From: Paramecium tetraurelia | Lineage: Eukaryota | DNA length: 64,000 nt | Assembly: GCA_000165425.1 (NCBI GenBank) | Contig: CT868141.1 | Coordinates: forward strand, 62,001-126,000 | Direction: 5' to 3' | Part shown: positions 8,001 to 57,167 of the stretch, piece after piece | Position numbering within the stretch: the first letter of the stretch is position 1 | Layout of the letters: each line of letters starts with the position of its first letter | The notes under the pieces: generated by a model | Told to the model about the DNA's origin: nothing | What the model saw: the letters and a program-made list of their open reading frames with translations, nothing else | The model's database searches: none | Program-made: the position numbers and the translations under genes

Positions 8001-10939
8001 ACAATATTAAAAACATAAATTTTAGCTCAGTTAAAATCCCTATAAACATTCAATTGAGAGTTCTAACTTCTAATGTGGCATGTCCTATAAATAGTAATAA
8101 TATTAGTTAGGAAGGAATTACATCAAAAAACTCTGTATTAATTGAACCCAAGCATCAAATATATTTAGAATTCCTTCGGCAGTTATTTTAGAATTCGGAT
8201 TAATATTAGGAGAGCAATGACCTGTTTTAACAGAACTCTTGTAGCCTTCTTTGCAAATCACACACTTGATAATCTGTTATGGAGATAAAACACATTAAAG
8301 ACAATCTGCGATGTATTTTTGGCAATTAATAATTTCAGGTGCAATATTGAAATCATCAATTTAAGATAATGTGCAAATTTCTATTCCTTCTAAATTTATA
8401 AAGGATCTTAAACAATACTGAAGAGTAGGTTTTTAATGTATGCAATATCCTTTTTAAAAATCAAATATAAAATTATCTTCGCACAATGCACATCCTACTT
8501 AATGATTCTCGTCTTTATTAAATTCTTCAAAATCTTTATACAAAGTGCATTTTGTTAAATCCTGCCTATTATATTCGAAACAAAATTTACACTGATTTAT
8601 AGTACAGATTTTACATTATTTATTTGATGTTATATAATAAGGAGAAACGCAATCATTAGTATTTGAATAACCTGTAACATTATTATATCGATTACAAAAG
8701 CCTTCATTTAGGGATAATTTAAATATACAAGCAAGGCAAATTAGTCCATTGAATTAGACTACACAAACTTCACAGAGATTTAAATTGCAAGGATAACAAT
8801 AGGGGTCATATTAATTTAAGAAGTAATTTCTTTAACAAATTTCCTTTTGAATCAAAAATTAATTGGAGAAATCCTGATAAATTATGGAATCAGATTAAAA
8901 ATTTGTTTAATCGCAATCTTTACACAACAGGAGTTAATCATCAATTAAAATATAGTATTCTTTAGTATCTTGAATAATTGTATTATATGTATTATCTGCA
9001 ATGGTATATAGATATGATTAACAATAAAGTTCAGATTTCCAATTAAGAGGATTAAAGATACATTCTAAACATGTAATAAGATTAGATTTGATAAGCGAAG
9101 GACTATAAAAATGATAACTATTTATTATACCATTTGATACAAGTTTATGAATCCATATAAAAGTATCCATATTCGCATTCTATTTCAGTTTTTGTATATT
9201 CAATAATTTGAATTTGAAATTGTTCTTTTGAATAACAAAAATCCTAATCGATTTCGTTATAGTGACAAACACAAGCCTTTTCTGTGGGAATATAAATTCT
9301 ATTGGAATTATGAGAACATGATATACAATCAGAATTGGTTGGTCCATCACATTATTCACAACTTAGATGACACCTTTTATTAACTAAAGTGGTATCGCAA
9401 TTATAAAAATGGAAATTTTCAATCTAAACATTTAAGTAATTTTCAGATTCCTAATTTACATTTCCATAATGAATTTGAAATTAAACTTCATTAAAATGAT
9501 TTACGTTTAACTAATCTGAATATTAATATTAATCTTCTTCATTATAAAATGTAATCATTATTTATAACACCTTCTATTATAATGTAACTTATAAATAGTG
9601 CCATAAATAAATGTCATTCTAAATTTCGATTTCCCTTATAATTAAAAATGGATTATCCGTAAAATCTATGTTGACAATTGGAAATGTGTAACTATAAGTC
9701 ATTATTAATATCTCATATTTATTTTGTGATAAGATTCTGTAAAGCAATTAAAAAGCCGATAAATTATCATCATTAAACTTTAAATTCTAACTGAACTTAT
9801 TCATTTTCAAAAATTAATAATCGAAATTATCACTTATTTTATGTATTTCCTTTATTCTTAACCATCCTGATAATCCAAATGAATCACAATTTCCATTTTC
9901 AGACGTAAAATATCGTTAATCAAGCCAAATAAGGATTTCATTTTCGATCTTATCATTTATATTTGATTCACAGTTACAAATATAAAGTTCTCCAAAAGTA
10001 TCAACTGCTATTGCTAATCCATTCCTGTCAAAACTCATAATTTAAGACAATAAGAAAACATAATACAATTTTCCTGGAAAGAATGATAATTGCTTGCTAC
10101 CTTGCATACTCTAAAGAATCTCATCATTTGAAAGTATCAATCCACCTCCAAAAGTCATTAGTTAATTTAAACTCCTGAAAGGGCAAATAATTTATAAGAT
10201 TTTTGTAAAGATTGTATCTGGGTGAAGTATAAATAGCAATTCACACCTTTTTTCTAATGGCCATTAGACAATCGAAATGAAATACCATCTATTTTCATAT
10301 TCCCATTAATCTAATTTTATATCATAGCTGTGAAATATTCCATCATAATCAAAAAACTAAATGACTTTTGTTATTTTCTTCTCATCAAAATCAAGACAGT
10401 CAAAGTAAATTAAATCTATCTTCACAGTTGAAGAATCAACTGAATTGTGTAAATGATAACAATTACTATCAAAAATACCTATTTTACCAATTTAACTTAT
10501 CTGTCTTAAAGGCAAGTATTTACTCCACAACCCATATGAAAAATATTAATTGCTGGCCAAGTCCTCTAATTTAAAGGATAACTCTTAGGTTTGTATTTAA
10601 TAATCTTAACTTAAGTCCATTATAAAGTCACAAGAAAAACAAAAGATTAATATCAAGTAAGGTATCAGATGAGTCATTTATTAATGATTAATTTTATTTA
10701 TGAAAAGCTCGTTTAATTAATTAGATTCAAAACTAAAAATAAATTTGTAATCTCTCTTTTGAAGTTTGATTTCAATATTAAATTTTGAATATACTATGAC
10801 AATAAATGACCCCTTTATTATATTTCAACATCATTTTCTAAAATTCAGAAATTTAGTACCAAATTACTGCCAACAATTATTCTGTATCAAGATTATTTGA
10901 AAGAAGAGAGAAAAAATAGAGTAAATAAAAAAGTTTCAT
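2083..10939 (-). CDS. Giant Cys-rich / beta-helix surface protein with C-terminal multi-TM domain (family copy A, ~2,900 aa)
   Basis: ATG at 10939 gives signal-like MKLFYLLYFFSLLS. LamG-like SGWLRI..TYSYTFP..WHYL; CxxC repeats; GGAIYI and GGGIYL motifs; GYWRP..CSGGWG..GHIGGLCEECDIYNIRG; then TM helices with YLLNEYNKNSYFWEQIK. 3' end uncertain: TGA at 2083-2085, or further out if a 22-nt intron is spliced. Confidence 0.8.
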
Positions 10940-37153: not shown

Positions 37154-38167
37154 ATTTATATAAATAAAATTATGCATTCCATTTTATATTTTTCAACTAT
37201 AAAAAGATTTAAACTTATAATTAAATTAGGATATAGATTATAAATTACATGATTTAATAAATTATATAAGTATTATTATGAAATCAACAGATTTAATTTG
37301 GATAATATTATGCTCGAGTAATTATCATACCTAAATTAATCAAAATATATAGTAATTTTTTCATTGAAATCAAAATTAATAATAATAGCAGGATCTCCTG
37401 GTTAAGCAGTATTAAATTACTAGTATTTCACTTAGTATTTTAAAAAAGTTATAGAGGCTTACTCTTAATTTTATATAAGATTCTTTAACAATGCTAGGAT
37501 ATAACAATCAATTAATAATTAATTTAATATGTGTTCGAGCTGAATTTTGATTCATAATAAAACAATTAATCCTTGATAGAAATCTTAGCTTTTAACCCTA
37601 AAAAATTATATAAAAATGAATTAAATTATTTTTGGTCAATTTGAATGACAAATAAATATTCATCTACATTTGAAAATAATCTAAATATTTCACTCCTAAG
37701 TCCAAATATAATATATTTAAAGGGTTTTTGAAATTAGAATTTATATTTATTCTAAGAAGTAGCCAATAAACAATTGCATCAATAACTTGCCTATTATTTG
37801 TTTCTTGCTATCCTTTAATTTTTAAATTACTCTGCTTTTAGTATTATTCCTAATTAATTTTATTAAAGAGATGAATTTTAGAATGAAATCAGTTTTCTAA
37901 TAACTCAATTATATAAAACTTCGTATGATATCAGAACTTGAAAAATAAAATCTCTCTTTTTTGTAATCAATTTATTCAGCAATGAACTCATCTCATTTTT
38001 GATATTTTATGATAAATGTAATTCCAAAGAAATTCATAAGTTGGGAAAATATTCAAACCGTTTTGTTTATCAATTAATGCATTTCACATAAATTTAATCA
38101 GAAAGAAAATATTATGTCTTAGAAGTAATTTTATAATTAACTATATAAATAAATAAATTAGTTTAAA

Positions 38168-41100
38168 ATGAATCAAAAAGCTACTAATCTCTTTATGTTC
38201 ATTATTTTTGGTTTGCTAAAGTAATATTCATTCTTATAACAGATAATGTTTATCTGATTGCGGATACATAAATTCAGGATCTAGTTTATTGAGTTTAACT
38301 GATCCGCAATAATAAATAGATATAAGTTTAGATAATTTGGTGCTATAAGGTGCATCTAATATTGGATATGGTGTATGGATAAAGTATTAGCCTTTTGTGC
38401 CTATTTCTTAGATTAGTATGATTTTTATTCGATTAATTAGCGACTTAAGGCTCAACATCAGGAGGTATGACATTCAAAGCAACTGGGGATTCAGGATCTT
38501 TTATATATCTGCAATAGCAGAAGGATACAAAATTCAATATGTTAACTGTTTATATTACAATTTCGGCGGCATCTAACACAATAATGCATAATATATTTTA
38601 TTCATTTCAATCAACAACAGGGACTGTTTCTTTCAGTTTTGAATTTGGAGAATATGAGGGAAGATGGATTTTGTTTTATGTTTATTACGATCTTTTGTAA
38701 AAATAAACAACATTAGGTTTTTATCAAGCAGAATAAACAACCTCAACACTAACTAAATAATTATAAGATATCCCTTCTCTTGTAAAATAAGTTAGACATA
38801 TAATTGGTGGTGTATAGGAAATAAAAAATTAATTGGGAGAGAACTTAAGCTTGTCTTAATTTAAAGGGAGAATATCATCATTATTCAGCAAAGAGCAACT
38901 TAACATATTTTTGGATTTGAATTCATTTTTATCAACTTGTTAGATAATCCAATCTTGTGTGATAAAATAGTATAAGATGTCAGGGTTTAACTAATTGTTC
39001 ACTGGGAATGGATTTACAAATAATAGTACAAGTCAATTAGAATAACAAAAATATGTTATCTAGGGTTGGGTTAAAATGGATTTTTTGTTTGATGATAATT
39101 ATCTTGAAACAGTTATTTTCAGAGTAACAATCAATAATAATTACAATGATGACATGACAATAGGAGATAAGGAACTCTATTTGAAGTATTATTAAAGCAT
39201 GACACCAGCTTTAAATGGGTTTTCATTAACAACGTACACATACACTTTTCCAGTGGAATCAAAATAATAGAGTTCGGGCACTGATATCTTAACAGTAACT
39301 GGAATATAATACTAAAATCTTTTAATTAGTTGGCATTACATCTAATATGAAATCGGGACAAATAATAATAATGGATAACCTTTATTTTCTTTATTTTTTC
39401 CATCTTTAAATTATGTGTTGCAATATAAATGGACTGTAAAAATAAATCATTTTACTGGAACCATCCTATATTATTTTGTGGGGGGTGACAATTTTATCAA
39501 AACTTATCTGCTTGGATAATTAAGTGATTTGACTTTGACTACCTATTGTACAACACCATAAATAACTTTAAATCCTAAGTGCCATTATTCTTGTTAAACA
39601 TGTGATGGTCCTGGAATATCTAATTGTTTATCATGTCCAACTGACAGTTTTAGAGTGCAGTCAATAACTTAGAAGACTTGTACATGCAAAAACAAATATG
39701 TTGATATTGAAAATGATCCAATATGCTAGCCAGTAGTTGTTAAATTCCCGTAACTGGAAGAAGATGAAGTGGAAGTTGTTTGTAACAAAAGAGGATTTGA
39801 TAGTTGTGATGTTAACGCTCAAAAATGCCTTTTCGGTTACTTTTTTTATAAAGATAACTGCATCTAATGGTATTTATAATTAATAGATAAGTCCTGGTTA
39901 TTCCTTCTATAGTTCAAGATTTCAGATTTTATGTTCCAACTGTTTCTTTGATCCAACAAGTTTTTCTTAGAATTTATCATGTTCAGAGGACACCAAAACT
40001 TATTCGTAAGATGATGAAAATGCGTATTTCACCACTGAAAGATAGAATAGGGAAATTGAATTTTACACTGCTAATCTAAATTTAGATGGTTACTATGAGT
40101 TGACTTTATAGTAAGGATTTTTATAAGCTGGCACATGTAAGAAGGGATTTTTTTTGGATTCGAAATAATAATGCAGTGCTTGTTTGGAAGGTTGTGAAAC
40201 TTGTGTAAAGAAAGGGATTTGTTTGAATTGTTTTTCTAATTATGCTTTGACAGATGATTATCTATGTTAGTAATGTGTTGGCTGTTCTAGTTGTACATTC
40301 TCTAATCAAATTACTTAATGTACCTCTTGTAAAACTGGAACATATTTGACATCATTAGGATCATGTTAATCTTGTGGATAGCATTGTGCTAGTTGTAATT
40401 CACAAGGTTATTGTAATTATTGTGATAATCCAACTTTATATTTCTTGTCATTTGATGGTAAGAACTGTGAAATATGCACAATTACTAATTGTTAAATTTG
40501 TTATCATTATTTTATAAAATAGGGAGTAATATATACAAAACTTGATATTAGTGCATCTGTTGTTGACAGGGCTCAATCCTAATTATTCATTGGTTGTGCA
40601 CTCTGTCAGAAAAACTTATACTTCAATTAGATTACTATATAATGTGAAGCAGTAACTTAAGATTCTGGAAATGGTTCCAATGGTTCTAATGAAATTGATC
40701 CTGTTCCCCCTGGTGATTAGAATGGTAAGGATACTTAGGTAGTCACTGATTCATGCACTTTTGGTCTAATTACAGATTCTCAAGGCACAAATCATTGTTT
40801 AATCAGTTCAACCAGCGCTACTTCAACCCAAACCACTTATTGCTCAACAATCTCAAATTGTTAGTAGTGTATCTCTAATTATCTCTTGGCCAACACATTT
40901 TGTATTGTGTGTGCGGATGGATACTATTCAAGCATTTTAACTGGAAAATGCAATCAATGTGATTCCAGTTGTTAAACCTGTATTCAATAAAGTAAAGATT
41001 ATCAAGATTATTGGAAATGGGGAATTAAAGCCTACTACAAATATGTTTTGAATTCAGACGACTCTCATCCTTTTGAATAATATGCAACACAGACATCTGA

Positions 41101-44100
41101 GTCAGAATTCGAATTAATCTGTACATCATGTCCTAAAGGTTATGTTCTTAATGAATTCACTTGCATTAAGGATTGTAATGAAGATTGCACTGATTGTAGC
41201 ATAATCAATGGGGTTTCTACATGCACATAATGTTTAGAAACTCCTTATGGATTCTTAAAGAGCTAAAACTCTAAAGGCATTTGTCTAACTTGCCCAAACA
41301 ATTGTGCTGCTTGTTTAGAAAGGTCAACAGAAGAAATTCAAAGTATTAATCCCCATTTCGTTACAACGCAGACCAATATTAAATATACAAGAATTTGTTA
41401 TGAAAGATTTCAATAAGATTCAACTGAGGGGCAATTTTACAACGATTAAACTATCTAAACCATCTCATTTTGTGAAAAATATGGTAAATGCTATCATAGA
41501 GCTATTCTCAAATAAAATGTTTATTGTCATTAAAGTTAATACGATTAAGATTTATAACAAAGTGCAGATTAATAGGTTTTTCTGTAAAACAATATATATA
41601 TTGATGAACTTTTTAAAACTGGCTATTTGAAGGTTGTCGAAACCTCAAGTTTATATACTTATTTTAATGAAAAGGTAGTAAGAGTAGTAGAATACTAATT
41701 TAAATTCATCTAAGGTAATGCACCATCCTGTTTCATATAATCTGATTCTAAGTTATAAAATAAAATTCAAGAGAATGTGTTTTCCATTTAGTAAGTAAAA
41801 TTAAAGCTTATTGGAGATTAATATCCTACCACTATCATAATAGATAAAACCCTATAAATAAGCAACTTTGCATCTGTCTCATTTGAAAATATTTAATTTC
41901 AAACTGCAATTCAAATTAATTATGATTCTAAATAATCTTTTATTATTTTGCAGAATATCCAATTGAAATTGAATCTAATAATTAAAGATTGTGTATTTAC
42001 TACAACTAATTCAACTGAATAATTGAAATAATTTTAATTTATTTCTGATTCAGCATATTCATTAACTATTGATAATCTTATCATGAGAGACTTTAAAGTT
42101 TAGGATTCATCCGTATTTTCATATTCAATTTCTTCAGGCTTTGAACAATAAGCGATAATATCAAAACTAGAAATTATAACATCATATTTTAAAAACTCAA
42201 ACATCCTTAATTTTTAAGCTAAATCCAACAATCTCTATGTAAATCTTTAACTGAATGATGTATCTATTTCCAATACTCGATTTGATAAATCTAATTTGAC
42301 AAATACAGAGACCTAACTTTAATATGATATTGGAAAAATTACTGTTAATAATTTGACTCTAAGTTCTGTTATTTTAAATGGTAAATCAACTATTTTTTCA
42401 GTCTAAGGTGCTGCATCTTTTACTACCAAAACAGTTACGATTTAAGATTTATTTATTAGGAATAATTCCTTTTTTTATTATTCCAATATCATTTAGATCT
42501 CAGACCTTTCTGCCAATAACACTATAATTTAGGATAGTAAACTAATCACAAATGATGTAGATTTTGCAATATCAGATGATTCATTACTTAACTCTGCTAA
42601 GATTTCAATTGCCAATTTCAAATTAGAAAACCTCCAATATAGCAATGCATAAGCAATTTTAAAGCTTGTTTTATATGAAAAAATTGATTCTCAGGCTGTC
42701 AGCATCGATTCGTTTACACTCAACAACAGTTTATCATTACTAAATTTGATACCAAATTATATCTCATATGAGCAATCAAATATTTATATAGAGTGTTAGT
42801 AATGCAAATTGAACTCGGTTTATATTTAAAGAGGGTATGGTCTTCCAGAAATCACTATTGTGCGCTCACAAAACCTAACAATTAAGAATTTGTATCTTTC
42901 ACAATCAGCTGCTTATTATTCTAAAACATTGCATCAATCTTTTGAGTGCGTTAATAATTTTGCCTATTCTCAGATGTTTCATTTTTTATATATTGGATTC
43001 TACAAAAATATCACAATTAAGAATTTACAACTGAGCAATAGTATCACATATAACAACCCTTTTATAATTATAAAAGGATATGACTTAATGGAAAAAATAG
43101 AAAATGAATAGATTGATATTATAGATTCTATTTTTGATTCTAATATGCTTATCATTACAAAGGCCAATCGTGCCACTTCTATCATATCAATCCTCTCAGA
43201 ATAATCAACTATTGTGACGTTTAACAATGTAAAGTTCTATTATAATCATCTTAATCAATATTTTCAGGATTTATCAAGATAATCAGCTTCAACATTGCTT
43301 ATTCAATTACAATAAGGTAACTTTTATCTTGAAAATTCTTATTTTAAACAAAATCTGGTTACAAATTCTACAGATTCTATTTTGTACCTAAAAGCCATAA
43401 GTGTAGTAATATCTAATACTAAATTTCAAAAAAACAACATATTATAACTCTCTATAATCAGCTAGAATATCTTGTTACCTAATGATGATTAAGATGAGAT
43501 AAATGGAAAAACTTTAACGAATGCTTTTCCAATAAGTTCTAAAAGTGGAAATGGATTATTAATTGCAACTTATCTTACTTTAGATAAAGTGAGAGTGGAA
43601 TAATCTTTTTCAAACTATGGTGGTGGATTCTACATTAATACACAAGGAATTAGCAAGATTGTGATAAAAAATTCTAAATTTTTAAATACGTAAACATTAA
43701 TGTAGAGTTCTTCTTTTTCAGCTGGAGGTTGCATTTATATTGATGCACAATTATCAAAATTAGAATTAACTATATCATCAACTACTTTTGACACATCTAT
43801 TAGTAGAATAGAAGGAGGAGGCATATATATTATACCATCCTAATAGGAGAATAATATTTAAATGACGAATTTAAATGTAGTAAATTGTTACTCCATAAAA
43901 AGTTCCTTTCTATCGTTTTAACCCTCCAGTTTGGACAATATAAAATCTTAGATTTATATAAGTGGTGTAATTTTTTAGAATACTGAAAAGGGATTTAATA
44001 ATTTTATTTCACTATTGCTATCCCCATCAACCGCAGATCTTGATTCCATTCGTAACAGTAATGCATTGATATCGATTAAATATGCAAGCGTAAGTATAAA

Positions 44101-47100
44101 CAATTGTAGTTTTTAATCTCCCCAATTTTCATATTTCTTGGACATAGAGTCTGCTGCTAATATTTCTTTGCAGAATATCGAGATCATTAATTCCACAGTT
44201 TTATATTCCCCACTTCTCAAAATGAGTCTCAGGCCATGTAAATATTACATTATTCAATTTAGACTACAATAGCAATCTGATGATCAAAAATTTAACAGTA
44301 CAAAATGTGATTTAGAAAAGAATAATCGTTGATACTCCTTGTTTAGTAACAAGTCTAATTGCTTCTGGATCTTTTGTTTGTCCCTTAGTAGCCACTACTT
44401 AAAATAAAAAATTATCTGATTATGACACAACATCAATTTAGTAAATAACAATGGAATGCAATTAGTACCTCATATATTAAAATGTCTCCTACAAATTTAG
44501 TCTTATAGAAATAGATGACCTAAAGACAAGCCATAATTTCTAAGCAGAAGACATTTCATTTGATTCAATACAATGTTCTGATTGCTAATATGGAATTCTT
44601 AGATTTGAAGAGATAGAACAGTCAGATACTGAAAATATCCTATTTTCAAATATTAAGATAAGAGACAGTAATTGTGGGTAAACAGGATGCTTATCTTTAC
44701 TTTAATATGAAAGCGATTCAATATTAAGGAAGGATTTATTATCCTCTTCTCTTAATTAAAGAGTACTCTAACAACACGATTACTATAATTTAACTTACAA
44801 TTTAATTTACCAAGCAAGAATATTAAATTCTTTATTTATTAATAATATTGCCATTTATGGTGGATCTATATTTATAGTAGAAATATCCTCAATATTGCAT
44901 GGCTGTTACTTTAAAAATAATTCAGCCAGTATAGGAGGTGCTATTTATTATTTCTCAAAGCAGACTTAATTACACATTTTTGAAACTTAAATCCTTGAGA
45001 ATAAAGCCAAAATAGCTGGGGGATTATACTTAAATTCTTAGTCATTACAAACTACAACCTAACTTGATGTTTACTTATCCAATAATAATTCAACCCTTTT
45101 TGGTTCTGATGTTTTTGAGAATCCTAGATCCTTAACAATATCTTTAGATGCAGGAAAAACATTTCTAACCAAAAACCAGATATCAAAAACTGCGACGTCG
45201 GTAGTTGAATAAATTGTCATCATACCTTATAAGATTTTAGGCTAAGCTGAAAAATCCAAATTCATTATGTTTCCATCAGGAAGAGCCATAGGAACCTATA
45301 AATATTTTGATCAATACACATCTTCGTATATTCCCTACAATCTTACTTTTAGAATCATAGCCCTTAACAAATACAACACTTAAGAAAAAGAATTGGAAGG
45401 ATCTACTTGTACTATTTCTCCAAGCATTATGAATTCTACTACCAAAGAAACAATCTCAGGATTAACTGGAAGTTTATCATACACAACTGTAAAATTTAAC
45501 TAGACCTCTGGTGACTTTAATTTGGATGATCTTATTATATACTTTAATCCTACTTATGAACCAGAAATTATTATGTAATTATCAATATTTTGTAATATCA
45601 TTTCAATACCTTAATATTAATCCACTCCACCTTATTCTATTGATAATGCAATTACAAACTATAGATTATTGGTGGATATAAGAACATTTAATTGTTAATT
45701 AGGTGAGTATTAGAATATGACAACAGGTGGTTGTACTTTATGTGATACAGTATAGAATTAATATTAAGTTTAATGGAGTGCTTAAAGTTGTAGTTATAAG
45801 GATGATTAGAAAATGAAATCAATAGAATCTTCAATGATTGAATTAAGATTTGGTTATTGGAGAGCCTATTATTATACTTAAACTGTTGAATATTGTTATC
45901 ATTTGCCATCAAATTGTGAAGGTGGTTGGAAACCTGGAGATCAATCATGTATTGAAGGTCATATTGGAGCACTCTGTGAACAATGTGATCTCTATAACAT
46001 CAGATCCTAAGGTTCCTACTCTGTTAGCTCTAAATACTCCTGTGGAAGCTGTGATCAAATAATAGGCAATGTTTTAACTATCTTTTTTATCAGCGTATGG
46101 ACTCTTATCTCCATACTGATGTCAGTTAACAGTACTGTTGAGATGATTGAAGAATTTATTGCAGGTTTAAGATTAAAAGCCTTTGGGTTTACAGTGCTAA
46201 TTAAACCAGCTTCAACTGCTATTTTTATTAAAGCATTCACAAATTATTTACAAATCATTTCTACTATTGCAACATTTTAACTTGAAGTACCATCTGGTTT
46301 AGCCTCAGTTGTTAATAGTGTAGGAAATCCAATCGAATCAATGGCATATTCTTTAGACTGTTTCCTTATAAGAATCACAGACATTGAAATAATTTACTTT
46401 AGAATTATTTGGAGTTTACTCTTGGCTACCTCATATATTATGGCATTTTTTATCATTCAGGGTGTCCAAATATTAGCAAAATCTATAAAATATAATACAG
46501 CTTTTGTTTCGACTGCCTTAATATACGTTTTTATATATTTACAACCGAATTTGATTGCAGGCTTGATATCCCTCGTTTCATATAGGATCATTTCTGATGA
46601 ATATTGGATTCAGGGTAATGTTTCTTATAGATATGATACATATTCACATGCCAAATGGTTGATATCATTTTGTTTTCCTCTCTTACTCTTATTTAGTTTT
46701 GTTATACCAGTATTTTTTTTTTATGGAGTAAGGAATAATAGAGGCTAATTAAATAAGACAGTAGTTCGTTAAAAATGGGGGTACTTGTACAATGAATACA
46801 AAATACATGCCTACTATTGGGAAACCGTTAAAATATTGTAAAAGGAACTGATTATTATTGTACTGGCATATTATGATGATCACATTGCTATCAAGGCTTC
46901 TCTTGTATTTTTAGTATTATTCGGATACAGCTTTGTAACAACCTCATAAAAACCATATATTAGTGGTGAATTGAACTATTTAGACACGCAATCCACAATA
47001 GTTTGTGCAGTTTCAATCATATTAGGAAGTTCTATAAATACTGCCCAAAAATCTAACTTAGTTGAAATAGTATGGCCCTTTTACATTATCATTGCCATTT

Positions 47101-47637
47101 TAAATGCATATTTTATTTTTAAAATGTTAATAAAAATATTGTTTGCTTATTTTGATAAATTGCATGAACAAATTGATAAGGTTAAGGAGTTGATGGTAAG
47201 CAATTTCCCAAATTTAATTAAGAAGCATCCTTTTATATAAGATTTATTTGAAAGTAGAAAAAAACAAAAAGCAAGAGTTAAGGCTAGATTTACCAAAATT
47301 AAAAATCATTTGTTACCTTAGGCAAAATTAATTATTTAATTTAAAAAGTAAATAAATTTAATCATTCATTTTTAGGTAAAATAATTTAGATTTGCCTGGA
47401 AGAATAAATACACAATTATCTGATTATGATGAAGATATGTAAAAGAAAATGGAAAAAAATATTGACATTAATTTGTGTGCTATTAATCCCTTATCTCCGG
47501 AGTGTAATTCTGATAAAGATTCAAATGTGGATTCTTTATTTAAAAAGCCATAATCATCTAAAGTTTACCCGGAGCTAATAATTAATTATATGAATTAAGA
47601 TAGTTTAAAATCAAGCATCCATCATTCTCAAAGTTGA
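38168..47637 (+). CDS. Giant Cys-rich / beta-helix surface protein with C-terminal multi-TM domain (family copy B, ~3,100 aa)
   Basis: Signal peptide; LamG-like YGVWIKYQP / QGWVKM / TYTYTFP; CHYSCQTCDGP and CxxC repeats; GGGFYI, GGCIYI, GGAIY; GYWRA..CEGGWKPGD..GHIGALCEQCD; TM region with WGYLYNEYKIHAYYWETVK; TGA at 47635-47637. Confidence 0.88.
45651..46060 (+). repeat. Arm 1 of a 410-bp near-perfect inverted repeat (partner 49392-49802)
   Basis: By-eye alignment shows one synonymous substitution and one 1-nt indel; the ORF track shows identical peptides at both sites. Confidence 0.93.
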
Positions 47638-47796
47638 TTTTTGAAGGAGATTTTAATACTTTAATGACTTATATAATTTATTTTCGTAGGTTATCAAATA
47701 ATTATATATGTATCTGCGATGATTAATATAATAAATTATTAATTTGGAATATTCAATTTAAGTTTTGGTAAATTGTATATATCAATGAATATTTAA

Positions 47797-50700
47797 TCAA
47801 ATATCAGCACTTTATCTTGCACTCTCCACTTCCAAATCTATTTCTGGATGTATTCTAGTACCACTTGGTCTGGGAAATGAAAAAACAGATGATCTCTCAT
47901 TCAAGATGTTGGTTGGGTACTTTACTAAGGTTTTTAAGTTTTATCTTTCGGTAATTATTTCACTTTATTTTGGACTATTCAAACTTTATATATCTCCATA
48001 ATCAAACTCTTGGATTTCCTTCTCTCTTCCTGAAGATTTATATGTGTCTACTACGCAAGGCAATTCAAAGTTATTGAACCTTTTTGAATAACATTATATA
48101 TTACTTTTTAAACTCTAAAATCTTTTTAGCCTAGGGGAAAATATATTCTCTGATCTTTCCATATCTTCCTTTAATTCTTATCTATTATGTTTTGCGGCTT
48201 TCTAGGATCTACTTTATATATGGATGTTAATTGGCTAACTTGGGGAATCTCTTGGAAATAAAGTCTTTAATAATATCAATTTTATCATGGAGTTTCTTAA
48301 AATATGCAAATAAAATTTGCAATAGCATTTTTAATATGTACAAGCCATTTAGAACACCAATTATAATGTAAAAAGGCCAAACAATCTCTTATAAATTTTA
48401 TTATTAAGCAGTATATATGGAACTAGCCAAAATAATTGAAACAGCACAAACAACAATAGAATGGGTGTCTAGAAGATTTAATTATCCAGTCATATAAGGT
48501 TTATTCGAAATTGTCAAGTAGCTATATCCAAATAATACAAGAAAAACTAAAGATGCCTTGATTGCAATGTGATCATCATAATAGGCAAGCACAATAATAA
48601 TTACTTACTTTTATAATATTTTGATAGTTTCCCAATAGTAAGCGTGTAATTTGTATTCATTATACAAGTATCCCCATGTTCTTCTTACCTTAGTCATATC
48701 TAGTTGGTATTTATTTTTATGGACTCCAAACCACAAGAAAAAGGGAAGGACGCAGCAAAATATTATTAGAAGTGGAAAACAAAAGCCAACCACCCATTTG
48801 GCATGGGATATAGTATCATATCTGTATGCAACATTGCCTTATATCCAATATTCATCAGAAATTTTTCTATAAGATAATAGAGATATAAGCCCTCCTATAA
48901 TGTTAGGTTGCAAATAGATGAATAAATAAATGAGGGAAGTAGAAACGTATGAAAAATCAATCTTAGCACGCTTAAATAGAACTGCAAGACCTCCTAAACC
49001 AAAAAATATCGTGATATACATGGTAGCCATAATTAATCCCCATATGATTCTGAAGTAAATGATTGATATCTCTGTAATGGATACAAGGAAACAATCAAGA
49101 GAATATGCCATTGATTCTATTGGATTGCCAACGCTATTAACCACAGAGGCCAAACCAATTGGAACTTAAAGTTGAAATGTGGAAATTGTAGATACAATTT
49201 ACAAATAATTAGTAAACACCTTTATCAGTATAGCCGTTGAAGCTTCTTTAATTGCAACTGTTACTCCAAAAGCCTTCAATCGAAGCCCAATAACAAATTC
49301 ATCAATCATTTCCACAGTACTGCTGACTGACATCAAAGTCGAAATGAGAGTCCATAAACTTATTAAAATAATACTAATGATATTGAATGCAATTTGATCA
49401 CAGCTTCCACAGGAGTATTTAGAGCTAACAGAGTAGGAACCTTAGGATCTGATGTTATAGAGATCACATTGTTCACAGAGTGCTCCAATATGACCTTCAA
49501 TACATGATTGATCTCCAGGTTTCCAACCACCTTCACAATTTGATGGCAAATGATAACAATATTCAACAGTTTAAGTATAATAATAGGCTCTCCAATAAAC
49601 CAAATCTTAATTCAATCATTGAAGATTCTATTGATTTCATTTTCTAATCATCCTTATAACTACAACTTTAAGCACTCCATTAAACTTAATATTAATTCTA
49701 TACTGTATCACATAAAGTACAACCACCTGTTGTCATATTCTAATACTCACCTAATTAACAATTAAATGTCCTTATATCCACCAATAATCTATAGTTTGTA
49801 ATATTTTACTTGATTTCAAATGGAGGTTCATCATTATATTGAGGAATAATTATTGAACTACATTAGATAGATAATCGAAGAACAAGGTTATTAGTCAAGT
49901 TTGGCATAAAATAGATTACTAAATTATCTAAATTATAATCGCCAGAGGTTTGATTAAAAGTAACGTTAGAGAAAGAAAGATTGTAATTAACATTAGGTTC
50001 TTCAGTTTAAGAAGATATATTAAAGGCAAAAGGTTTTATTGTGCAATAAGAATTCTATAATCCTTTGTTTTATTTGTTAAACTTATCTAAAGCTATTATC
50101 CTAAGAGTTAAATTATATGGAATAATTGTGGACGTATATTGATCAAAGAAATCATATGTACCTATGGGCCTACCTGATGGGAGAGTTAAATATGTCATTT
50201 TTTATGAATAGCCTAAAACTTTATAAGGCTTAATGATGATTTATTCTGTAATACTGCTTTCGGTTACTGAAACTAATGATTTTTATAATAGAGTTTATCC
50301 TCCATCGATTGAAAGAGTCAAGGACCTCGGGTTTTCAATCACATCCTCTCCATACATAGTAGAATTATTGTTTAATAATTGAATATCTAATTCTTTTGTC
50401 AATTAAAGGGATTATTAATTTAAGAACACTCCTCCTGCAACCTTAGCTGTATTTTAAATTATTTAAGTTTCAAGAAGGAAAATTTAACTTTCTGATGAAG
50501 AATAATAAATGGCTCCTCCAATTTATGCTGAATTGTTTTTGAAAGTACATTTCTTAATTAAGGTACCAAGTTCTACTATTAATATTGATCCCCCATAAAA
50601 TGCAGTGTTATTTAAAAAAGAACTGTCCACAATATTAATTTGTTGATTTAACTTAAAATGTAGGTTATCATAATCATGTTACTAAAGTATTCTTGTAGGT

Positions 50701-53700
50701 CCTATTAAATTCTATTTAAGAATGAATTCATCCAAACTTTTTACAATTGATAAGCAGCCTGTATTTCCGCATCTACAATTTTTAATAGCAATTTAAGATA
50801 ACTTCATAGTTTCTTTGTTTTGTTAGTAAATTTCAAGAATTCTAAATATACCAAATTAACAGTTTTCACATACAATATTTGTTAACTCCATTTTTTCAAC
50901 TTTTAATTGATGAGTTTAATTAAAGTTATCTATTTCAATCAAACTGTAATTAAATTGCTTATTTGAGTATATTAAAAGTTGATTACAAAGAAATTGTAGT
51001 TCTTTTTATTTTGTTTAATCTTTTTCATTCAAATTTAAAGCTACTTAAGATACATGAGTAGGACATTACAATTCAGAGTGAATAGCAGAGTTAGATTAAA
51101 TGCAAGAATCGGTATAAATCTATTTTCTCTCAATGACATTAGTTAATTATAGATTAGATATTTATAACTAGCCGGAAATTTCTAAATAATATTATAATTG
51201 ATTAATTACATGTTCTTAAATTTAATTTGAATAATGGTGACTACAAAATGGTGCTATTAATAACTTTGACATTAGATAAAATAATATTTTCAGCCTATTC
51301 AATTTTAATTAAGAATTAAATAACAGTAGAAAGAAAGCTACAATTATATATGCTAAAATTTCCATATTATAAAAATATCATAGGATTAGAATGAGCAACA
51401 TTTGAAGCATCATCTTCAGACAAATCTTAGATTAAAGAAAAATATTTTTGAAAACCGTTTTCAGATGTTTAGAATTGTATATTCTTAAAAATTACATTCG
51501 ATTTAATTGTATCTATCTTAGAAAGAGTGTATGAGAAAAATGTATTTTACAGTGAAAAGCATTCTCTTACGATCAAATTAAAAATTGTAATCAAATTATA
51601 ACTGAGTGAGGGAGTAATATAAATAGCTCCTCCATCATGTCTACTATAAGATGTATCTATTATAGAATCATGCAATTAAAAATTGAGTTGTGAGGAAGAT
51701 GCATCAATATATAAGCATCCACCTAATGCATAAACTGAATCATCTAGAGAAGACATCGTATTGTAAAAAAATGAATTAGCAATTCGTATTACACTTATTG
51801 CTTGAGTAGTAATAGAAAATCCTCCACCATAATATGAGTAGGATGAATTAATAGTAATGTTATCTATATTCAGAGTTTGGATTATAAATAATCCATTCCC
51901 TCCATTAGATTTTACTTAGAATATGGAAGCATAATCAATCTCATTTTAATCTTAAGATTATGAAAATAGTATATGGTTACTAATTCTAGATAAATTCATT
52001 AACCCATTATTTTAGAAGTAAGAATTCTGTAATTACAAAACAGAAGATTTAATATGGAGGATTGCATCAGTAGAATTAGTGACAATATTTTAGATAAATT
52101 TGCATTCATTCATTAATACACTGCCTTGTTATAAGGATATCTAAATGGTTGTAGCTGAAACTATAGTTAAATCTTGAACATATTCATTTAAATGATTGAA
52201 TGCAAAATATGCGATAGACAATGTGACTTTTGATTTTTATTCTGACTCTATAGAAATCAAGGAGGTGTGCTAATTTGTATCAGAAATAATAAGAATATTC
52301 TAAATAAGTTTGATATTTTAAATAACAATTGTTTCAGTCAGTATCTTTTACAGAGTATCATATCCTTTAAAAATGATGAATGGACTGTTGAAACTTAAAC
52401 TATTTTACACATTCACTTAATCAATAAACACATCCTTATATTATCCGATATAGATGAAAAAGTGCATATTTAAAATTGCAAATTATTTCACACATTCAAA
52501 TGAAGAATGAAGTGCTTTTGGCAGGAATTTTGAATTTTGTGAAATAATCAAATTTCTCATTTCCAATTTTTCCGAGTTGATTATTGTCATTTCTGGTAAT
52601 CCATATCCTCTAATAATTTAAATATTTTCTAAGAGACAAATTTAGCAGTCAATGTAAATCATAGAATTTTCATAAGAAATTTACTAACTTTAAGTTTTGG
52701 ATACTGTTTAACAATTTTATAATTGGAATTCCATTAATATGAATTTTAAACCACCTATTTCATCATATTTGGTGATTACTAAAATTTGCTATTACTATTC
52801 ATATACAACATTAAGAATTTAAAAATTCTTTAGGAATACATCAGAGGATGCTAATAATGCTTATTCGGATTTAGTATAATCCACTTTATTAGTAATTAAA
52901 ATACTATTCATAATACTTGTATTGTTCACGATGATGTCGTGAGTATTTATGATATTTGAGGCATAAAAATTTGAACCAAGACTTAGTAATGAGTTATTTA
53001 AGATTATATTCGATATCACAGACTTCTCAGCACAAGAGAGTAATAGAAAGTTTGAATTCCATTAAAATTCAGTGTTCTCAACAGTGATAGAATTAATATC
53101 TAATTATCCAATTGTATAATTCAATAAACTACTACTATATATAAAGTTTGATTAAATAAATTTAGTATCTTTAATTTAAATTTAACTTATTACTGAATTT
53201 AAAGACAAATGGTTAAGTTGAGCTAAATATTTTATCAAAGTTGAATTGAAAAAATAAGAGTCTTTAATAATTACGTTATCTATCTCAATTGCATTCTTTA
53301 AAATTTTTTATTGAGCTGTGAATTGGAAAATATCTGAATCGTAAATGTAAAAGTTAGATATCATTAAGTTTTTAATATATAAAGAATAAGGAATATTTGA
53401 ATTGAACGTGAAAGAATAATTTTTATCTGTTTCATTCTAAGTAATAAATCCACAGTTTATCAATTTTAAGGTTAAGGTTAATTTCAAATTAAATAAAGAT
53501 AGAATAGATTAAGTATTTTGGGAATCTTGCTTTTATGCACAGTTAAACCTGATATTTTGAAAAGTCACAGTAGTATAATTACTAATTTTAAATTCTACTG
53601 GAACCTACAATTGTGTTGGATTAGTTTATCCAATTAGCATGAGATCAACTTATTAAATAGCAAATACATTTTATTATAAAGTTGAGTGAATTTGAAGTAT

Positions 53701-56700
53701 ATCTATAAATACACAGTTAGGTTGATTACCCTATATAAATGTAAATTAATATTCAACATTTCTAACAGAGATCTCATTTAAATATTAATAAAGTGAAGCT
53801 GTTTCTTTGGAGATCAAGTATGAATCATCAAAAAACTGTTGTATATAAATATTCTTTGATGCAAAAAATTCATCATTTGATTCATACTATTTGGTCATTA
53901 AATCATCAAAATCACAATAGATATTCTATTTAATTATTATTTTATTATAGCATTATAAGTTTTCTGTGCAAATGGATATTGTCTAAGTGAAAGAATCATG
54001 AAAATAATTTTCTTATAAATTAATCTTATTTGATTTCTCGTAGCATTTTCTTGTAAGTTGTACATTTGAATTAGTTACTATAAAATATGGATTTATATCA
54101 GCGATTTCATCTAAGGATCTATTTAAACAGGCCAAACAATTAGATGGACATGTTAAACATGTTCCTTAAGTATTTAAGCTTTTGAGAAACCCTGATGAAG
54201 TTTCATAGCACTTAATACAAGTAGATTTTCCATCTATAATTACACATTCCTTACAGTTTTCATCACAACCCTTTATGCATTGATTTTGATGCAAGATATA
54301 CCCTACTTAACATGATGTACATATCAATTCTAAATCAGCTTCAGCATTTGTTGAAGCATAGTTTTCAAAAGCATGATCATTATTGGAGTTTAGAAAGTAT
54401 CTATAAAAGGCTTTAATTTACCATTTCCAGAAATCTCGATATTACTTATTTTATTGAATACAAGTCTTACAAGTGTGTGTACATTACTAACATTAGCCTG
54501 TCAAAACACCAGAATAATAGCCATCTTCACATATAATGCAGAAGCTATCAGTTTCAATATAATTTTTTATGCATTACTTACAATTTAGGAGAGTAGGACA
54601 ATCAATATTTTAAACAGAATCAATATTACTTGAACTGATTATACATTTTTGAGTTGCATCACTTAAAATTAATGCAAAATCACAGTCATCATTCACTGGT
54701 TTCAATTCGCATTTCTAAGTACTTAAATTAAAGAAATAGTCTTATTTACATAAAGCACAGCCAAAAGATACTTACATAAAGTCAAAATTTATGATATTGA
54801 ATTATAGATCCAAATTAGAAATGTAGATTCCACCATTCATCATATATTGAAAACAATAAATACAATTTTCTATATTGCATTCTTCGCAACTTTTGCCATC
54901 AAAAGAGATATACCGTAAAGAGGGTGATCCATTACAGAAGTAACAATACCCATCTGAATTGCAACTCTGACAATTAACCCCACATGATACACATTTGCCA
55001 TACAATAATTCTTATGTTCCATAACAAGTATCACACCATTGTTTTCCATTATTTAATAAACAAGTTTTACAATTCGTGCACTTCTTACATAAATGTTCAT
55101 CATCCTTGTAAAAACCTGGAAAACATTATTTACATCTATAATTAGTAATACAGGTTTAACAACCCTCCAAGCATTCCTAACATTCCTTATCTTTGTAAAA
55201 ATATCCTTCCTTACAACTACCTTCACCTAAACATCCTTAACATAACTTAATTAAATAGTTATCGTTTCCATCTTTTGAAAGTTCAAAATAACTAACATCA
55301 TTAGGTTTTCTCAAGGAAACGGAAAATGTATATTCAACTTGAGAATTGTAAGTCTCGGCATCTTGAGTACATTTGAGTGTTTTTGCAAATATCTTGGGGT
55401 CAATTATACAATCAAAACAAGTAAGTTGTGTTCTTGTAAAAATATCAAAATAATTTGGACTAAAATAGACAAATCTATTACCATTAAACACAATTTTAAT
55501 CTAATTAGAAATATCCAAAACTACATTCAATACTATCATTAGCACAATTAACATATCCTAATTTTGAGCATTTCAATTCAACTTCTTGTTTGGTAATTTG
55601 GGGAAATGCCTATAAAATTGATTTGCATTCATATAAACCATCCTAATCAACATATCTCTATTAACAAAAACAAGTCTTTTCAGTTTCTTAATGCTATCTA
55701 AAACTATCCTCAGGACAACTTAAACAATTATATTAAGTGGGACCATCACATGTTAAGCAAGTATAATGACATGATGGAACTAGTAATGCTTCAACTGGTT
55801 GACAGAATGTTTCTAATAGGATATCACTTACATATCCTTTCATAAATCGTTGAGAATAGTCATCCCCTCCAACAGATACATAATACACAACACCTGTAAA
55901 ATGTTTAACAGGTTGAGACCATTTGTATTATTGAAGCTATTCGATTGTTGGAAAATATAAGGAGAGCATAGGTTTTCCATCATTGTTTTAGGTTCCAAAT
56001 TCATATTAGAAATAATGCCATTTTAAAAATAATTCTGAAAATTAATCTCCAAATTTTGAAATTTTATTATCTTCTTATGTCTTATACCTTCCCCTTGATG
56101 GAAATGCATATGAATAAGTTGAAATTTGAAGTCCATTTTCAAGGGGTAAACTGCTCTAAAAATATTCAAGAAGAACTTCCCTGTCTCCAATGTACATATC
56201 ATCACTATAATCTTTATTGATTGTTATTCTAAATATCACAGTTCTTTATTCTGCTTAGCTTAATTACTCCATGATAATCCATCCTTTCAGTACATAAATT
56301 GGATCTCTGGTTTAAAATGTATTTGTTCGTATAATATCATCCCCATTCATTGCTTAATTTTTATTACTTACCATGTATTAACTAGGATTACAACTATCGT
56401 ATTCAAAAAAATTTTGGCAAGAAGCAAGGTTAGAGAAAATATTTTCATCGTGTGTTGTAAAGATGGTAGACATTAAACCAGTGAATTGATTTAGAACTAT
56501 AATTGCTCCATTTTAATTTGTATATTGAAAAAAACCACCGATTTTATGTTATATGCTCGCTACAAAAGGTGGCACATCATCAACTGTTTATGAGGGGATG
56601 CTTTCTAAGGCGGTGTAATATCCAAATGTGGATTTTCCTAAAAGTTAATCATAATAGACATAGAACATCACCCATAAACCTTCATAGATAGAACTGTCAA

Positions 56701-57167
56701 ATGTAAATTAGAGAGTATTTAAGGATGATTTAAATGAGTAAAATACATTATGTTGTATTGTTTAAGCAGTTGAATCAATTTTTATTGATACTACAAGCAT
56801 TTTAAATTTATTGACACTTTATTCCATTGAATAAATAAACTAGCCGCCTTGAACAATAATTTATCCATTTGATGTGGTAACTATCTATGAAGTCCGGTCG
56901 GCTAATATTGTAAATTGTGAAATTTACTCAGATCTTTCATTTCAATAAATGGTTGATATTTCACCCAAAGTCCGAATCCTACATTCATTTGTCCTTGAAC
57001 TACATCCGTCTCCAAGGTTTGGTCTTATACCGATTAAGGATCTGATGGATTAACAAGTGGCATAAATGTTAAAAATTAGCATTAACTTAGTACTTTTCTT
57101 AATATATTCAGATAGCTTACACCGCCAATAAGAAGATGAACAATATTTGAAAATATGTTATCATCAT
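47797..57167 (-). CDS. Giant Cys-rich / beta-helix multi-TM surface protein (family copy C), apparently frameshifted at ~49598
   Basis: Colinear with copy B, with shared intron positions. MMITYFQILFIFLLA signal; FGLWVKYQP; CHYTCLTCDGP; TM region WGYLYNEYKLHAYYWETIK. The +1 insertion gives a premature TGA at 49563-49565 unless it is a sequence error. Confidence 0.8.
49392..49802 (-). repeat. Arm 2 of the inverted repeat (411 bp, extra base in the A-run at 49597-49599)
   Basis: Reverse complement of 45651-46060; GGTTATTGG in copy B vs GGTTTATTGG in copy C. Confidence 0.93.

What the first reader, a model, noticed from the sequence alone, without database searches (positions are those of the whole stretch)
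45651..49802. Sharply bounded 410-bp near-identical tract between two old, tail-to-tail giant receptor paralogs (domain-specific gene conversion?)
Seen: copies B (+) and C (-) are colinear but show heavy synonymous divergence in the flanks I compared, including the conserved TM region. Only 45651-46060 and 49392-49802 are near-identical (1 substitution, 1 indel), forming an inverted repeat with a ~3.3-kb spacer. The tract covers the membrane-proximal Cys-rich module (ITNYRLLVDIRTFNCQLGEY...GHIGALCEQCD...SCGSCDQ) and ends at TM1. Inference: recent ectopic gene conversion. Recombination between the two arms would invert the spacer and swap the TM/cytosolic tails between the two ectodomains in frame, a possible receptor-shuffling switch.
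Basis: partly seen in the sequence, partly recalled or inferred. Interest (0 to 1): 0.8.

Follow-up and report, generated by a model that had tools for sequence, protein, structure and literature searches.

The report
Gene-conversion island in paired Paramecium genes
Two old, facing copies of a giant membrane-protein gene in Paramecium keep one 410-base module identical by repeatedly copying it between each other, and they do so in at least three species; this is a clean, long-lived case of a known process, not a shown switch.

Summary
B 45651-46060 and C 49802-49392 differ by one synonymous base and one extra T. Flanking DNA is about 50-75% identical and its synonymous sites are saturated. 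The window is Paramecium tetraurelia macronuclear DNA; B and C are adjacent convergent genes of about 3,100 codons.

The tract is not a one-off event. The orthologous B/C pairs of P. octaurelia (136/136 residues) and P. sonneborni (129/136) show the same island with the same edges, while the tract differs between species (130/136 and 104-110/136). Inside the tract, every informative site groups the paralogs by species. In the flanks, all but one group them by orthology. This is recurrent gene conversion (concerted evolution) of one membrane-proximal Cys-rich module, lasting across the deepest split of the aurelia complex.

Independent DNA runs confirm all four junctions and roughly twofold depth in the tract. 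The orientation of the spacer could not be phased, so the inversion "switch" is untested. One P. sonneborni paralog has a C-type ectodomain and a B-type tail, with the change at the tract.

The extra T frameshifts C in this assembly. Whether it is real is unresolved. The deposited C model bridges it with a doubtful 37-nt intron.

The parts
38077..47637 (+). Gene B (P. tetraurelia GSPATT00009289001 / CAK72941; protein P0145, 3,133 aa). Exon blocks: 38077-38124, 38162-38221, 38247-38417, 38437-39864, 39893-44236, 44265-47360, 47380-47634. Stop TGA at 47635-47637.
   Evidence: tblastn of P0145 at 98-100% identity; stop codon read; names.
47797..57063 (-). Gene C (GSPATT00009290001 / CAK72942; model P0030, 3,035 aa). 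It is convergent with B. Stop TGA is the reverse complement of 47797-47799. The reading frame is broken by the extra T at 49598-49600.
   Evidence: tblastn of P0030; ORFs 51377..49563 and 49615..48065 lie in different frames; stop codon read.
45651..46060 (+). Arm 1 of the inverted repeat: the 410-nt converted tract in B. It covers codons ITNYRLLVDI...SCGSCDQ(I), a Cys-rich membrane-proximal module with 11 Cys, and ends at TM1.
49392..49802 (-). Arm 2 of the inverted repeat: the 411-nt tract in C.
46061..49391 (.). 3,331-bp spacer. It holds B's multi-pass TM and cytosolic tail, a 159-bp intergenic stretch (47638-47796), and C's tail. No other gene lies in it.
   Evidence: A single 3,391-nt contig covers 46031-49421 in two independent DNA runs.
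45683..45683 (+). The only base difference between the arms: A in B, G on C's coding strand at 49770. It is synonymous (Arg AGA/AGG) and lies 33 nt from the 5' edge.
49598..49600 (-). T-run with one extra T in C (TTT against TT in B at 45854-45855). It shifts C's frame, and a TGA follows at 49565-49563.
   Evidence: The reads did not confirm it.
49531..49567 (-). 37-nt 'intron' (GTTGAA...GTGAAG) in the deposited C model. It restores the frame but deletes 12 conserved residues, including a Cys. It is probably an annotation patch over the frameshift.
   Evidence: P0030 reads ...LRFGLLESLLLYLNC|GWKPGD. B, the P. octaurelia C ortholog and all relatives keep these residues. No joint was seen in the RNA data, which barely cover the site.
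49789..49809 (-). 21-nt GTA...TAG 'intron' in the deposited C model, straddling the 5' edge of the tract. It removes QNITNYR. Doubtful.
   Evidence: The ITNY motif is kept in the 7 other sequences shown, and the P. octaurelia C model P0144 keeps it.

Best explanation
The tract is an island of concerted evolution. B and C are ancient, convergent neighbour paralogs for giant Cys-rich / beta-helix / multi-pass membrane proteins. One 136-codon membrane-proximal module is repeatedly overwritten by non-reciprocal homologous recombination (interlocus gene conversion) between the two inverted copies, which lie 3.3 kb apart.

Shown:
- The arms are near-identical while adjacent synonymous sites are saturated.
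- The same island with the same edges occurs in three species.
- Species-specific substitutions are shared by both paralogs inside the tract only.

Inferred:
- The events happen in the germline micronucleus, because they are inherited and fixed.
- The island perpetuates itself. Identity permits strand invasion, and the 25-50% diverged flanks stop heteroduplex extension, so the edges stay put.
- Purifying selection on the lineage-specific flanks helps. For example, TM1 reads IIGNVLT in all B proteins and IAFNIIS in all C proteins.

The last event in P. tetraurelia is very recent (at most 1 substitution in 410 nt). Its direction cannot be told.
For: 1. Arms are 409/410 identical plus one indel. 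Flank pS is 0.69-0.74, against 1 difference in about 80 synonymous sites in the tract. The first 60 codons after the tract already have pS 0.72, and codons 360-419 of the 463-codon pre alignment (the last window computed, ending about 43 codons before the tract) have pS 0.84.

2. Shuffle test: a run of 411 against a maximum of 60 in 10,000 shuffles.

3. B-versus-C amino-acid identity for pre-100 / tract / post-100:
- P. tetraurelia: 46/100, 136/136, 78/100
- P. sonneborni (P0019 vs P0032, consecutive accessions): 48/100, 129/136, 70/100

4. Between species the tract differs: tet-oct 130/136, tet-son 104-110/136.

5. Informative sites, species pattern versus orthology pattern:
- Tract: 6 vs 0 (tet/oct) and 24 vs 0 (tet/son)
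- Flanks: 0 vs 42 and 0 vs 22 (tet/oct); 0 vs 18 and 1 vs 10 (tet/son)

6. Segment trees of 24 rows. In the tract tree, B and C join P0018_oct (99*), and son_B joins son_C. In the pre and post trees, B and C sit in different major clades.

7. Of 20 other same-contig pairs of the family that could be scored, none shows such an island. One further pair ran off the sequence edge and was not scored.

8. P. sonneborni and P. tetraurelia lie in the two subclades of the aurelia complex (PMC8354472, passages read).

9. Independent DNA runs X1 (2015) and X13 (2024) hold contigs across all four arm/flank junctions. The tract pieces sit at about 1.8-2.0 times single-copy depth.

10. Gene conversion between Paramecium paralogs is documented (PMC4199370, passages read).
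Against: - GC3 in the tract is 0.199, which is not raised over the flanks at 0.20-0.28. There is therefore no GC-biased-conversion signature of long recurrent conversion.
- All interspecies comparisons are at protein level only. The DNA of the other species could not be fetched, so synonymous identity in P. octaurelia and P. sonneborni is not shown.
- A minimum of one event per lineage would formally suffice. 'Recurrent' rests on the coincidence of the edges in three lineages.
- Step-like edges held for so long are sharper than variable conversion end-points would naively give. The reason for the fixed edges is inferred, not shown.
- No B/C orthologues were found in P. primaurelia or P. pentaurelia among the hits, so the span 'across the complex' rests on three species.
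Confidence: 0.85

Rival explanations
1. Inversion switch, or an evolutionary flip-flop. Crossing-over between the arms inverts the 3.3-kb spacer and swaps the TM/cytosolic tails in frame, giving B-ecto/C-tail and C-ecto/B-tail proteins. The identity of the arms would be kept for this, or would be its by-product, as in the yeast chromosome XIV flip/flop region.
For: - The geometry fits: inverted arms in the same codon phase, with a spacer that holds only the two tails.
- P. sonneborni P0021 groups with C before the tract (95*/96*) and with the B clade after it (99*). The change of partner falls within the tract.
- A eukaryotic precedent exists: recurrent homogenisation of inverted gene pairs drives repeated inversion in Saccharomyces (PMC9731477, abstract and outline read).
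Against: - In all 3 of 3 species the B ectodomain carries the B-type tail and the C ectodomain carries the C-type tail.
- No reciprocal B-ecto/C-tail protein was found among the hits.
- The spacer has no room for a recombinase gene.
- P0021 could equally come from a conversion tract running to the 3' end, or from a repeat-induced mis-join in a short-read assembly.
- Spacer orientation could not be phased in the runs laid. That leaves the idea untested rather than contradicted.
Confidence: 0.1
2. Selection, not recombination mechanics, sets the island. B and C must carry the same juxtamembrane Cys-rich module, for example because they pair with each other or with one common partner. Conversions of exactly this module are then favoured, and longer ones are removed.
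For: - The edges coincide with a structural unit: from the conserved ITNY motif to the last Cys before TM1.
- The edges agree within about one codon in three species.
- Both genes are constrained alike between tet and oct: B 283/300 and 392/400; C 284/298 and 386/400.
- Strand-consistent poly(A) RNA reads lie on both tails (53 reads in all).
Against: - No test of binding or co-assembly was made.
- The module is the best-conserved part of the whole family, at 74-81% amino-acid identity to other paralogs. A purely homology-driven island would therefore be expected there anyway.
- 20 other neighbour pairs of the family do without it.
Confidence: 0.25
3. A single, one-off recent ectopic conversion in P. 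tetraurelia.
For: Only one substitution separates the arms.
Against: The same island is present in P. octaurelia and P. sonneborni, and in each species both paralogs share the species-specific residues.
Confidence: 0.03
4. Assembly artefact (one arm copied or collapsed), or nucleotide-level constraint from an embedded RNA or DNA element.
For: The reference is an older assembly, and the frameshift and the base difference inside the tract are not confirmed by reads.
Against: - Two DNA runs from other studies give contigs across 44000-45680, 46031-49421 and 49773-49938. Each runs 30 nt into an arm, and the internal pieces sit at about twice single-copy depth.
- Nucleotide-level constraint is contradicted by 26-32 of 136 residues differing between P. 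tetraurelia and P. sonneborni in the tract.
Confidence: 0.02

Closest known systems
Gene conversion between paralogs in the Paramecium aurelia complex (McGrath et al. 2014, PMC4199370; passages read)
   Same: Same organisms and same process. Intraspecific paralogs are more alike than interspecific ones, and identity tracts are read as conversion tracts.
   Different: That work concerns paralogs from the recent whole-genome duplication. It gives median longest identity stretches of about 108 bp in P. tetraurelia, and says few pairs still convert. Here the partners are much older, adjacent, inverted paralogs with saturated synonymous sites. The tract is 410 bp, is confined to one module, and is kept in three species.
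Saccharomyces chromosome XIV flip/flop region (Salzberg et al. 2022, PMC9731477; abstract and outline read)
   Same: Inverted repeat made of paralogous genes. The repeat is continually homogenised within each species over millions of years.
   Different: In yeast, whole genes (4 kb) form the repeat, both orientations are documented, and a 24-kb block of 15 genes flips. Here only a 410-bp internal module is homogenised, an inversion would recombine the two coding sequences themselves, and no inverted form has been seen.
tufA/tufB of Salmonella and E. coli: concerted evolution of inverted duplicates linked to inversion
   Same: Inverted paralogs kept alike by homologous recombination. The same repeats can mediate inversion.
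   Different: Bacterial and RecA-dependent, with whole-gene homogenisation of a highly conserved gene. Here it is a eukaryotic germline with a module-restricted island in otherwise diverged genes.
Arm-to-arm gene conversion in sex-chromosome palindromes (PMC3403216; seen only as title and abstract start in the listing)
   Same: Closely spaced inverted arms are kept near-identical by intrachromosomal conversion.
   Different: Palindrome arms are long (kb to Mb) and include whole genes. Here the arm is one exon segment bounded by old divergence.

Membership tests
Interlocus gene conversion / concerted evolution | A stretch of near-identity in otherwise diverged paralogs, longer than chance allows | tested here: met
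   411 columns with at most 2 differences, against a maximum of 60 in 10,000 shuffles. Flank pS 0.69-0.74 against 1 difference in about 80 synonymous sites.
Interlocus gene conversion / concerted evolution | Within the tract, paralogs of one species are closer than orthologues of different species; outside it the reverse holds | tested here: met
   Species versus orthology pattern sites: 6 vs 0 and 24 vs 0 in the tract; 0 vs 42, 0 vs 22, 0 vs 18 and 1 vs 10 in the flanks. Segment trees agree. Protein level only.
Interlocus gene conversion / concerted evolution | Raised GC (GC-biased conversion) in the converted tract | tested here: not met
   GC3 is 0.199 in the tract against 0.20-0.28 in the flanks. 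This feature is common but not obligatory.
Invertible DNA segment / flip-flop inversion | Inverted repeats bracket the segment | tested here: met
   Arms 45651-46060 and 49392-49802 with a 3,331-bp spacer.
Invertible DNA segment / flip-flop inversion | Both orientations exist in molecules, strains or species | tested here: inconclusive
   Contigs break at the repeat and the raw RNA reads are at most 58 nt. Three of 3 species have the parental linkage. One mosaic paralog (P0021) is compatible with a past exchange.
Invertible DNA segment / flip-flop inversion | A dedicated site-specific recombinase in or beside the segment | tested here: not met
   The gene models leave only a 159-bp intergenic stretch in the spacer. 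Neighbouring genes outside B and C were not examined.
Pfam PF06011 (TRP, fungal TRP-like / Flc-type membrane domain) | Score at or above the family's gathering cut-off (28.5 bits) | tested here: not met
   C's tail scores 17.7 bits (E = 0.0017). B's tail and the full-length P0018 and P0030 give no hit. UniRef names some relatives 'TRP C-terminal domain-containing'. The fold search was inconclusive.
Pfam PF02415 (Chlamydia polymorphic membrane protein repeat, beta-helix) | Score at or above 20.6 bits | tested here: not met
   18.2 and 15.9 bits on the GGAIY motif region of C. Bacterial and archaeal proteins with PF02415 and PF13229 appear as weak hits to the ectodomain.

The most novel reading that the evidence does not exclude
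The identical module is a conserved in-frame recombination hinge. It has been kept identical in the B/C pair since before the aurelia radiation. It would let the spacer flip, in the germline over evolutionary time and perhaps in some of the roughly 800 macronuclear copies. Ectodomains and channel-like tails would then be re-paired (B-ecto/C-tail, C-ecto/B-tail). The P. sonneborni mosaic P0021 would be a fixed product of such a flip.
Probability: 0.12. Interest if true: 0.75.

Novelty: new member of a known kind. Interest (0 to 1): 0.45.

Why it matters
This locus is an unusually clean natural experiment on what limits gene conversion. One 136-codon module has stayed homogenised in three species. 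Synonymous sites immediately beside it are saturated, and the edges agree within about a codon across the deepest split of the P. aurelia complex.

The locus could be used to ask three things: whether conversion end-points are set by flanking divergence, by germline-only insertions (IESs), or by selection on a shared juxtamembrane module.

It also has practical uses. The tract would mislead dating and orthology calls for this family. The deposited model of gene C appears to hide a frameshift behind two doubtful introns.

Tried and rejected
- **Whole-genome search for further copies.** No genome is held for this window. I could therefore make no census of similar tracts and could not identify the third locus that shares a 40-nt word.
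- **Spacer orientation, the extra T and the base difference from reads.** Only Logan contigs and one raw RNA run with 53 reads of at most 58 nt were laid. The contigs end 30 nt into each arm, so nothing is phased.
  - My own arithmetic's depths gives the following. The 241-nt piece with B's version of the indel site sits at about 2.0 times single-copy depth in X1 and X13; a popped 1x bubble would give about 1.87. The 189-nt piece carrying G at the variable base sits at 1.80 times in X13; a popped bubble would give 1.805.
  - In X13 no depth lies on 49522-49613. This hints that the base difference is real and the extra T is not. It is weak evidence, because contigs drop variants and 51 pieces were not shown.
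- **Splicing of the 37-nt and 21-nt 'introns'.** No joints were listed, but RNA cover of the sites is near zero. No conclusion can be drawn.
- **A joint 47351>50450 in both DNA runs.** It has only 21 nt on one side. I took it for a contig of another paralog.
- **Direction of the last conversion.** I first noted B as donor because the tract resembles the P. octaurelia B protein. I withdrew this once the P. octaurelia C protein proved identical to B there.
- **A reciprocal B-ecto/C-tail protein in P. sonneborni.** P0138 turned out to belong to another clade, and none was found.
- **Family and fold of the tail.** Pfam gave nothing above cut-off. The AlphaFold model had mean pLDDT 69.7, and under 50 over most of the tract. 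Foldseek against the PDB had a best E of 0.15. VIA-align wide gave only generic helical bundles with Z of 10 or less.
- **IES at the tract edges.** Arnaiz 2012 Table S4 lists one 1,340-nt IES in gene B. The window's offset on the scaffold is unknown to me, so I could not place it. Files 13-16 of that paper's supplements were not searched.
- **Literature.** Three searches (listings only, beyond the papers named) showed no paper on this locus.
- **Earlier notes of this scan.** There are none for this genome.

Full report
**What the window is.** Long reading frames appear only under the ciliate code. GC is about 27%. Copy C is 100% identical to the P. tetraurelia macronuclear protein P0030 (CAK72942, GSPATT00009290001). 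Copy B is P0145 (CAK72941, GSPATT00009289001).

B runs 38077-47637 on the + strand and C runs 57063-47797 on the - strand. They are convergent neighbours separated by 159 bp. A third copy, A (about 2400-10824, - strand), is far more diverged at 23-39% amino-acid identity.

The proteins are about 3,100 residues long. They have Cys-rich repeats, a region with GGAIY-type beta-helix motifs, a membrane-proximal Cys-rich module and a multi-pass tail. No Pfam family reaches its cut-off. An AlphaFold model of tract plus tail (mean pLDDT 69.7; the tract mostly under 50) found no specific fold in the PDB. 'Receptor' is therefore a guess.

**The observation.** It holds exactly as described.
- The arms 45651-46060 and 49802-49392 differ by one synonymous base (45683/49770) and one extra T in C (49598-49600).
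- Outside the tract, 50-nt windows drop at once to 48% identity on the 5' side and 72-76% on the 3' side.
- A run of 411 columns with at most 2 differences compares with a maximum of 60 in 10,000 shuffles.
- Synonymous sites are saturated in every flank segment (pS 0.67-0.74). This includes the 60 codons immediately after the tract (0.72) and codons 360-419 of the 463-codon segment before it (0.84). dN is 0.23-0.55.
- B and C are 40% identical in the N-terminal 1,575 residues, 54% in the next 524 and 72% in the tail. They fall in different major clades of the family.

**Independent support for the assembly.** Two DNA runs from other studies (X1 from 2015, X13 from 2024) give contigs covering 44000-45680, 46031-49421 (a single 3,391-nt piece) and 49773-49938. 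Each runs 30 nt into an arm. The internal tract pieces sit at 249-258 against 122-144 in X1, and at 383-425 against 205-226 in X13. The repeat is therefore real and present twice. Because the contigs break at the repeat, the orientation of the spacer is not phased.

**Not a single event.** The cluster look-up supplied the P. octaurelia orthologue of C (P0144). It lies on a contig of the same length as the B orthologue P0018. The look-up also showed that the P. sonneborni orthologues P0032 and P0019 have consecutive accessions.

B-versus-C identity before / within / after the tract:

| Species | Pre-100 | Tract | Post-100 |
|---|---|---|---|
| P. tetraurelia | 46/100 | 136/136 | 78/100 |
| P. 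octaurelia | 46/100 | 136/136 | 78/100 |
| P. sonneborni | 48/100 | 129/136 | 70/100 |

- The edges coincide within about a codon. The tract starts at ITNY. It ends at CDQI, which is followed by IGNVLT in every B and AFNIIS in every C.
- Between species the tract has diverged at an ordinary rate: tet-oct 130/136, tet-son 104-110/136.
- Both paralogs of a species share the species-specific residues. Sites with the species pattern versus the orthology pattern number 6 vs 0 and 24 vs 0 inside the tract. In the flanks they number 0 vs 42, 0 vs 22, 0 vs 18 and 1 vs 10.
- Segment trees say the same.
- P. sonneborni and P. tetraurelia belong to the two subclades of the aurelia complex (PMC8354472). 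The island therefore spans the crown of the complex.
- It is specific to this locus. None of 20 other scorable same-contig pairs of the family has it.

**Mechanism.** I read this as recurrent interlocus gene conversion between closely spaced inverted paralogs. It is seeded in the best-conserved module of the family, which is 74-81% identical to other paralogs. It is confined by flanks too diverged for heteroduplex extension, and selection on lineage-specific flanks probably helps. The conversion itself is shown by the pattern. The germline setting and the cause of the fixed edges are inferred. There is no GC3 rise. The direction of the last event cannot be told.

**The switch idea.** The geometry is right, but nothing shows a flip. 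All three species link the B ectodomain to the B tail. The one hint is P0021 of P. sonneborni: it is C-type before the tract (95*/96*) and B-type after it (99*), and it changes partner within the tract. No reciprocal product was found. A long conversion tract, or a repeat-induced mis-join in a short-read assembly, would also explain it.

**The frameshift.**
- The extra T stops C's frame at 49565-49563.
- The deposited model P0030 bridges the break with a 37-nt GTT...AAG intron (49531-49567) that deletes 12 conserved residues. It also has a 21-nt intron at the tract's 5' edge (49789-49809).
- The P. octaurelia C protein is intact there.
- C is as conserved between tet and oct as B is.
- Strand-consistent poly(A) reads lie on C's tail (53 reads in all).
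- Contig depths hint that the extra T is absent from X1 and X13. This is weak evidence (see Tried and rejected).
- I put the odds of assembly error against a very recent lesion at about even.

**Comparison and novelty.** Gene conversion among Paramecium paralogs is known for WGD pairs (PMC4199370). Recurrent homogenisation of inverted gene pairs with repeated inversion is known in yeast (PMC9731477). tufA/tufB is the classical bacterial case (recalled). This locus is a new and very clean member of that kind: module-restricted, sharp-edged, and conserved in three species. Three literature searches showed no paper on it (listings only).

**Limits.** No genome is held for the window. The DNA of the other species could not be fetched, so interspecies evidence is at protein level only.

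Noticed in passing
window 49531-49567 and 49789-49809 (- strand): The deposited P. tetraurelia model of gene C (P0030) contains a 37-nt GTT...AAG 'intron' that compensates the extra T, and a 21-nt GTA...TAG 'intron' that removes the conserved QNITNYR. Both delete residues that all relatives keep. They look like annotation patches.
   Followed up: partly
window 45810-45849: A 40-nt contig covering this part of the tract has depth 419 in run X1, against 122-144 for single-copy pieces and about 250 for the two-copy tract. A third locus in the genome seems to share this exact word. It may be another paralog, for example an unannotated counterpart of P0020_oct.
   Followed up: no
gene B (window 38077-47637), exact place unknown: Arnaiz et al. 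2012 (PMC3464196, Table S4) list a 1,340-nt germline IES related to the Anchois-B transposon, IESPGM.PTET51.1.24.100577, inside GSPATG00009289001 (gene B). It has no ohnologous IES. I could not place it in window coordinates.
   Followed up: partly
P0021 (P. sonneborni CAD8073527), not in the window: Mosaic paralog with a C-type ectodomain and a B-type TM/cytosolic tail. The change of partner falls at the converted module. Its own tract is 111-112/136 identical to both P0019 and P0032.
   Followed up: partly
window ~2400-10824 (- strand): A third, much more diverged member of the same family (copy A; 23-39% amino-acid identity to B's C-terminal part). It does not share the identical tract.
   Followed up: no
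window 47351 / 50450: Both DNA runs contain a single-copy contig reported as a 3,098-nt skip between these places, but with only 21 nt on one side. Several loose ends (46638, 47328, 47358, 49209, 50470) also recur in X1, X13 or X20. They are probably contigs of other paralogs that share short conserved words.
   Followed up: no
(protein hits): No B-clade or C-clade orthologue from P. primaurelia or P. pentaurelia appeared among the hits, although both species are well represented in other clades of the family. The B/C locus may have been lost there.
   Followed up: no
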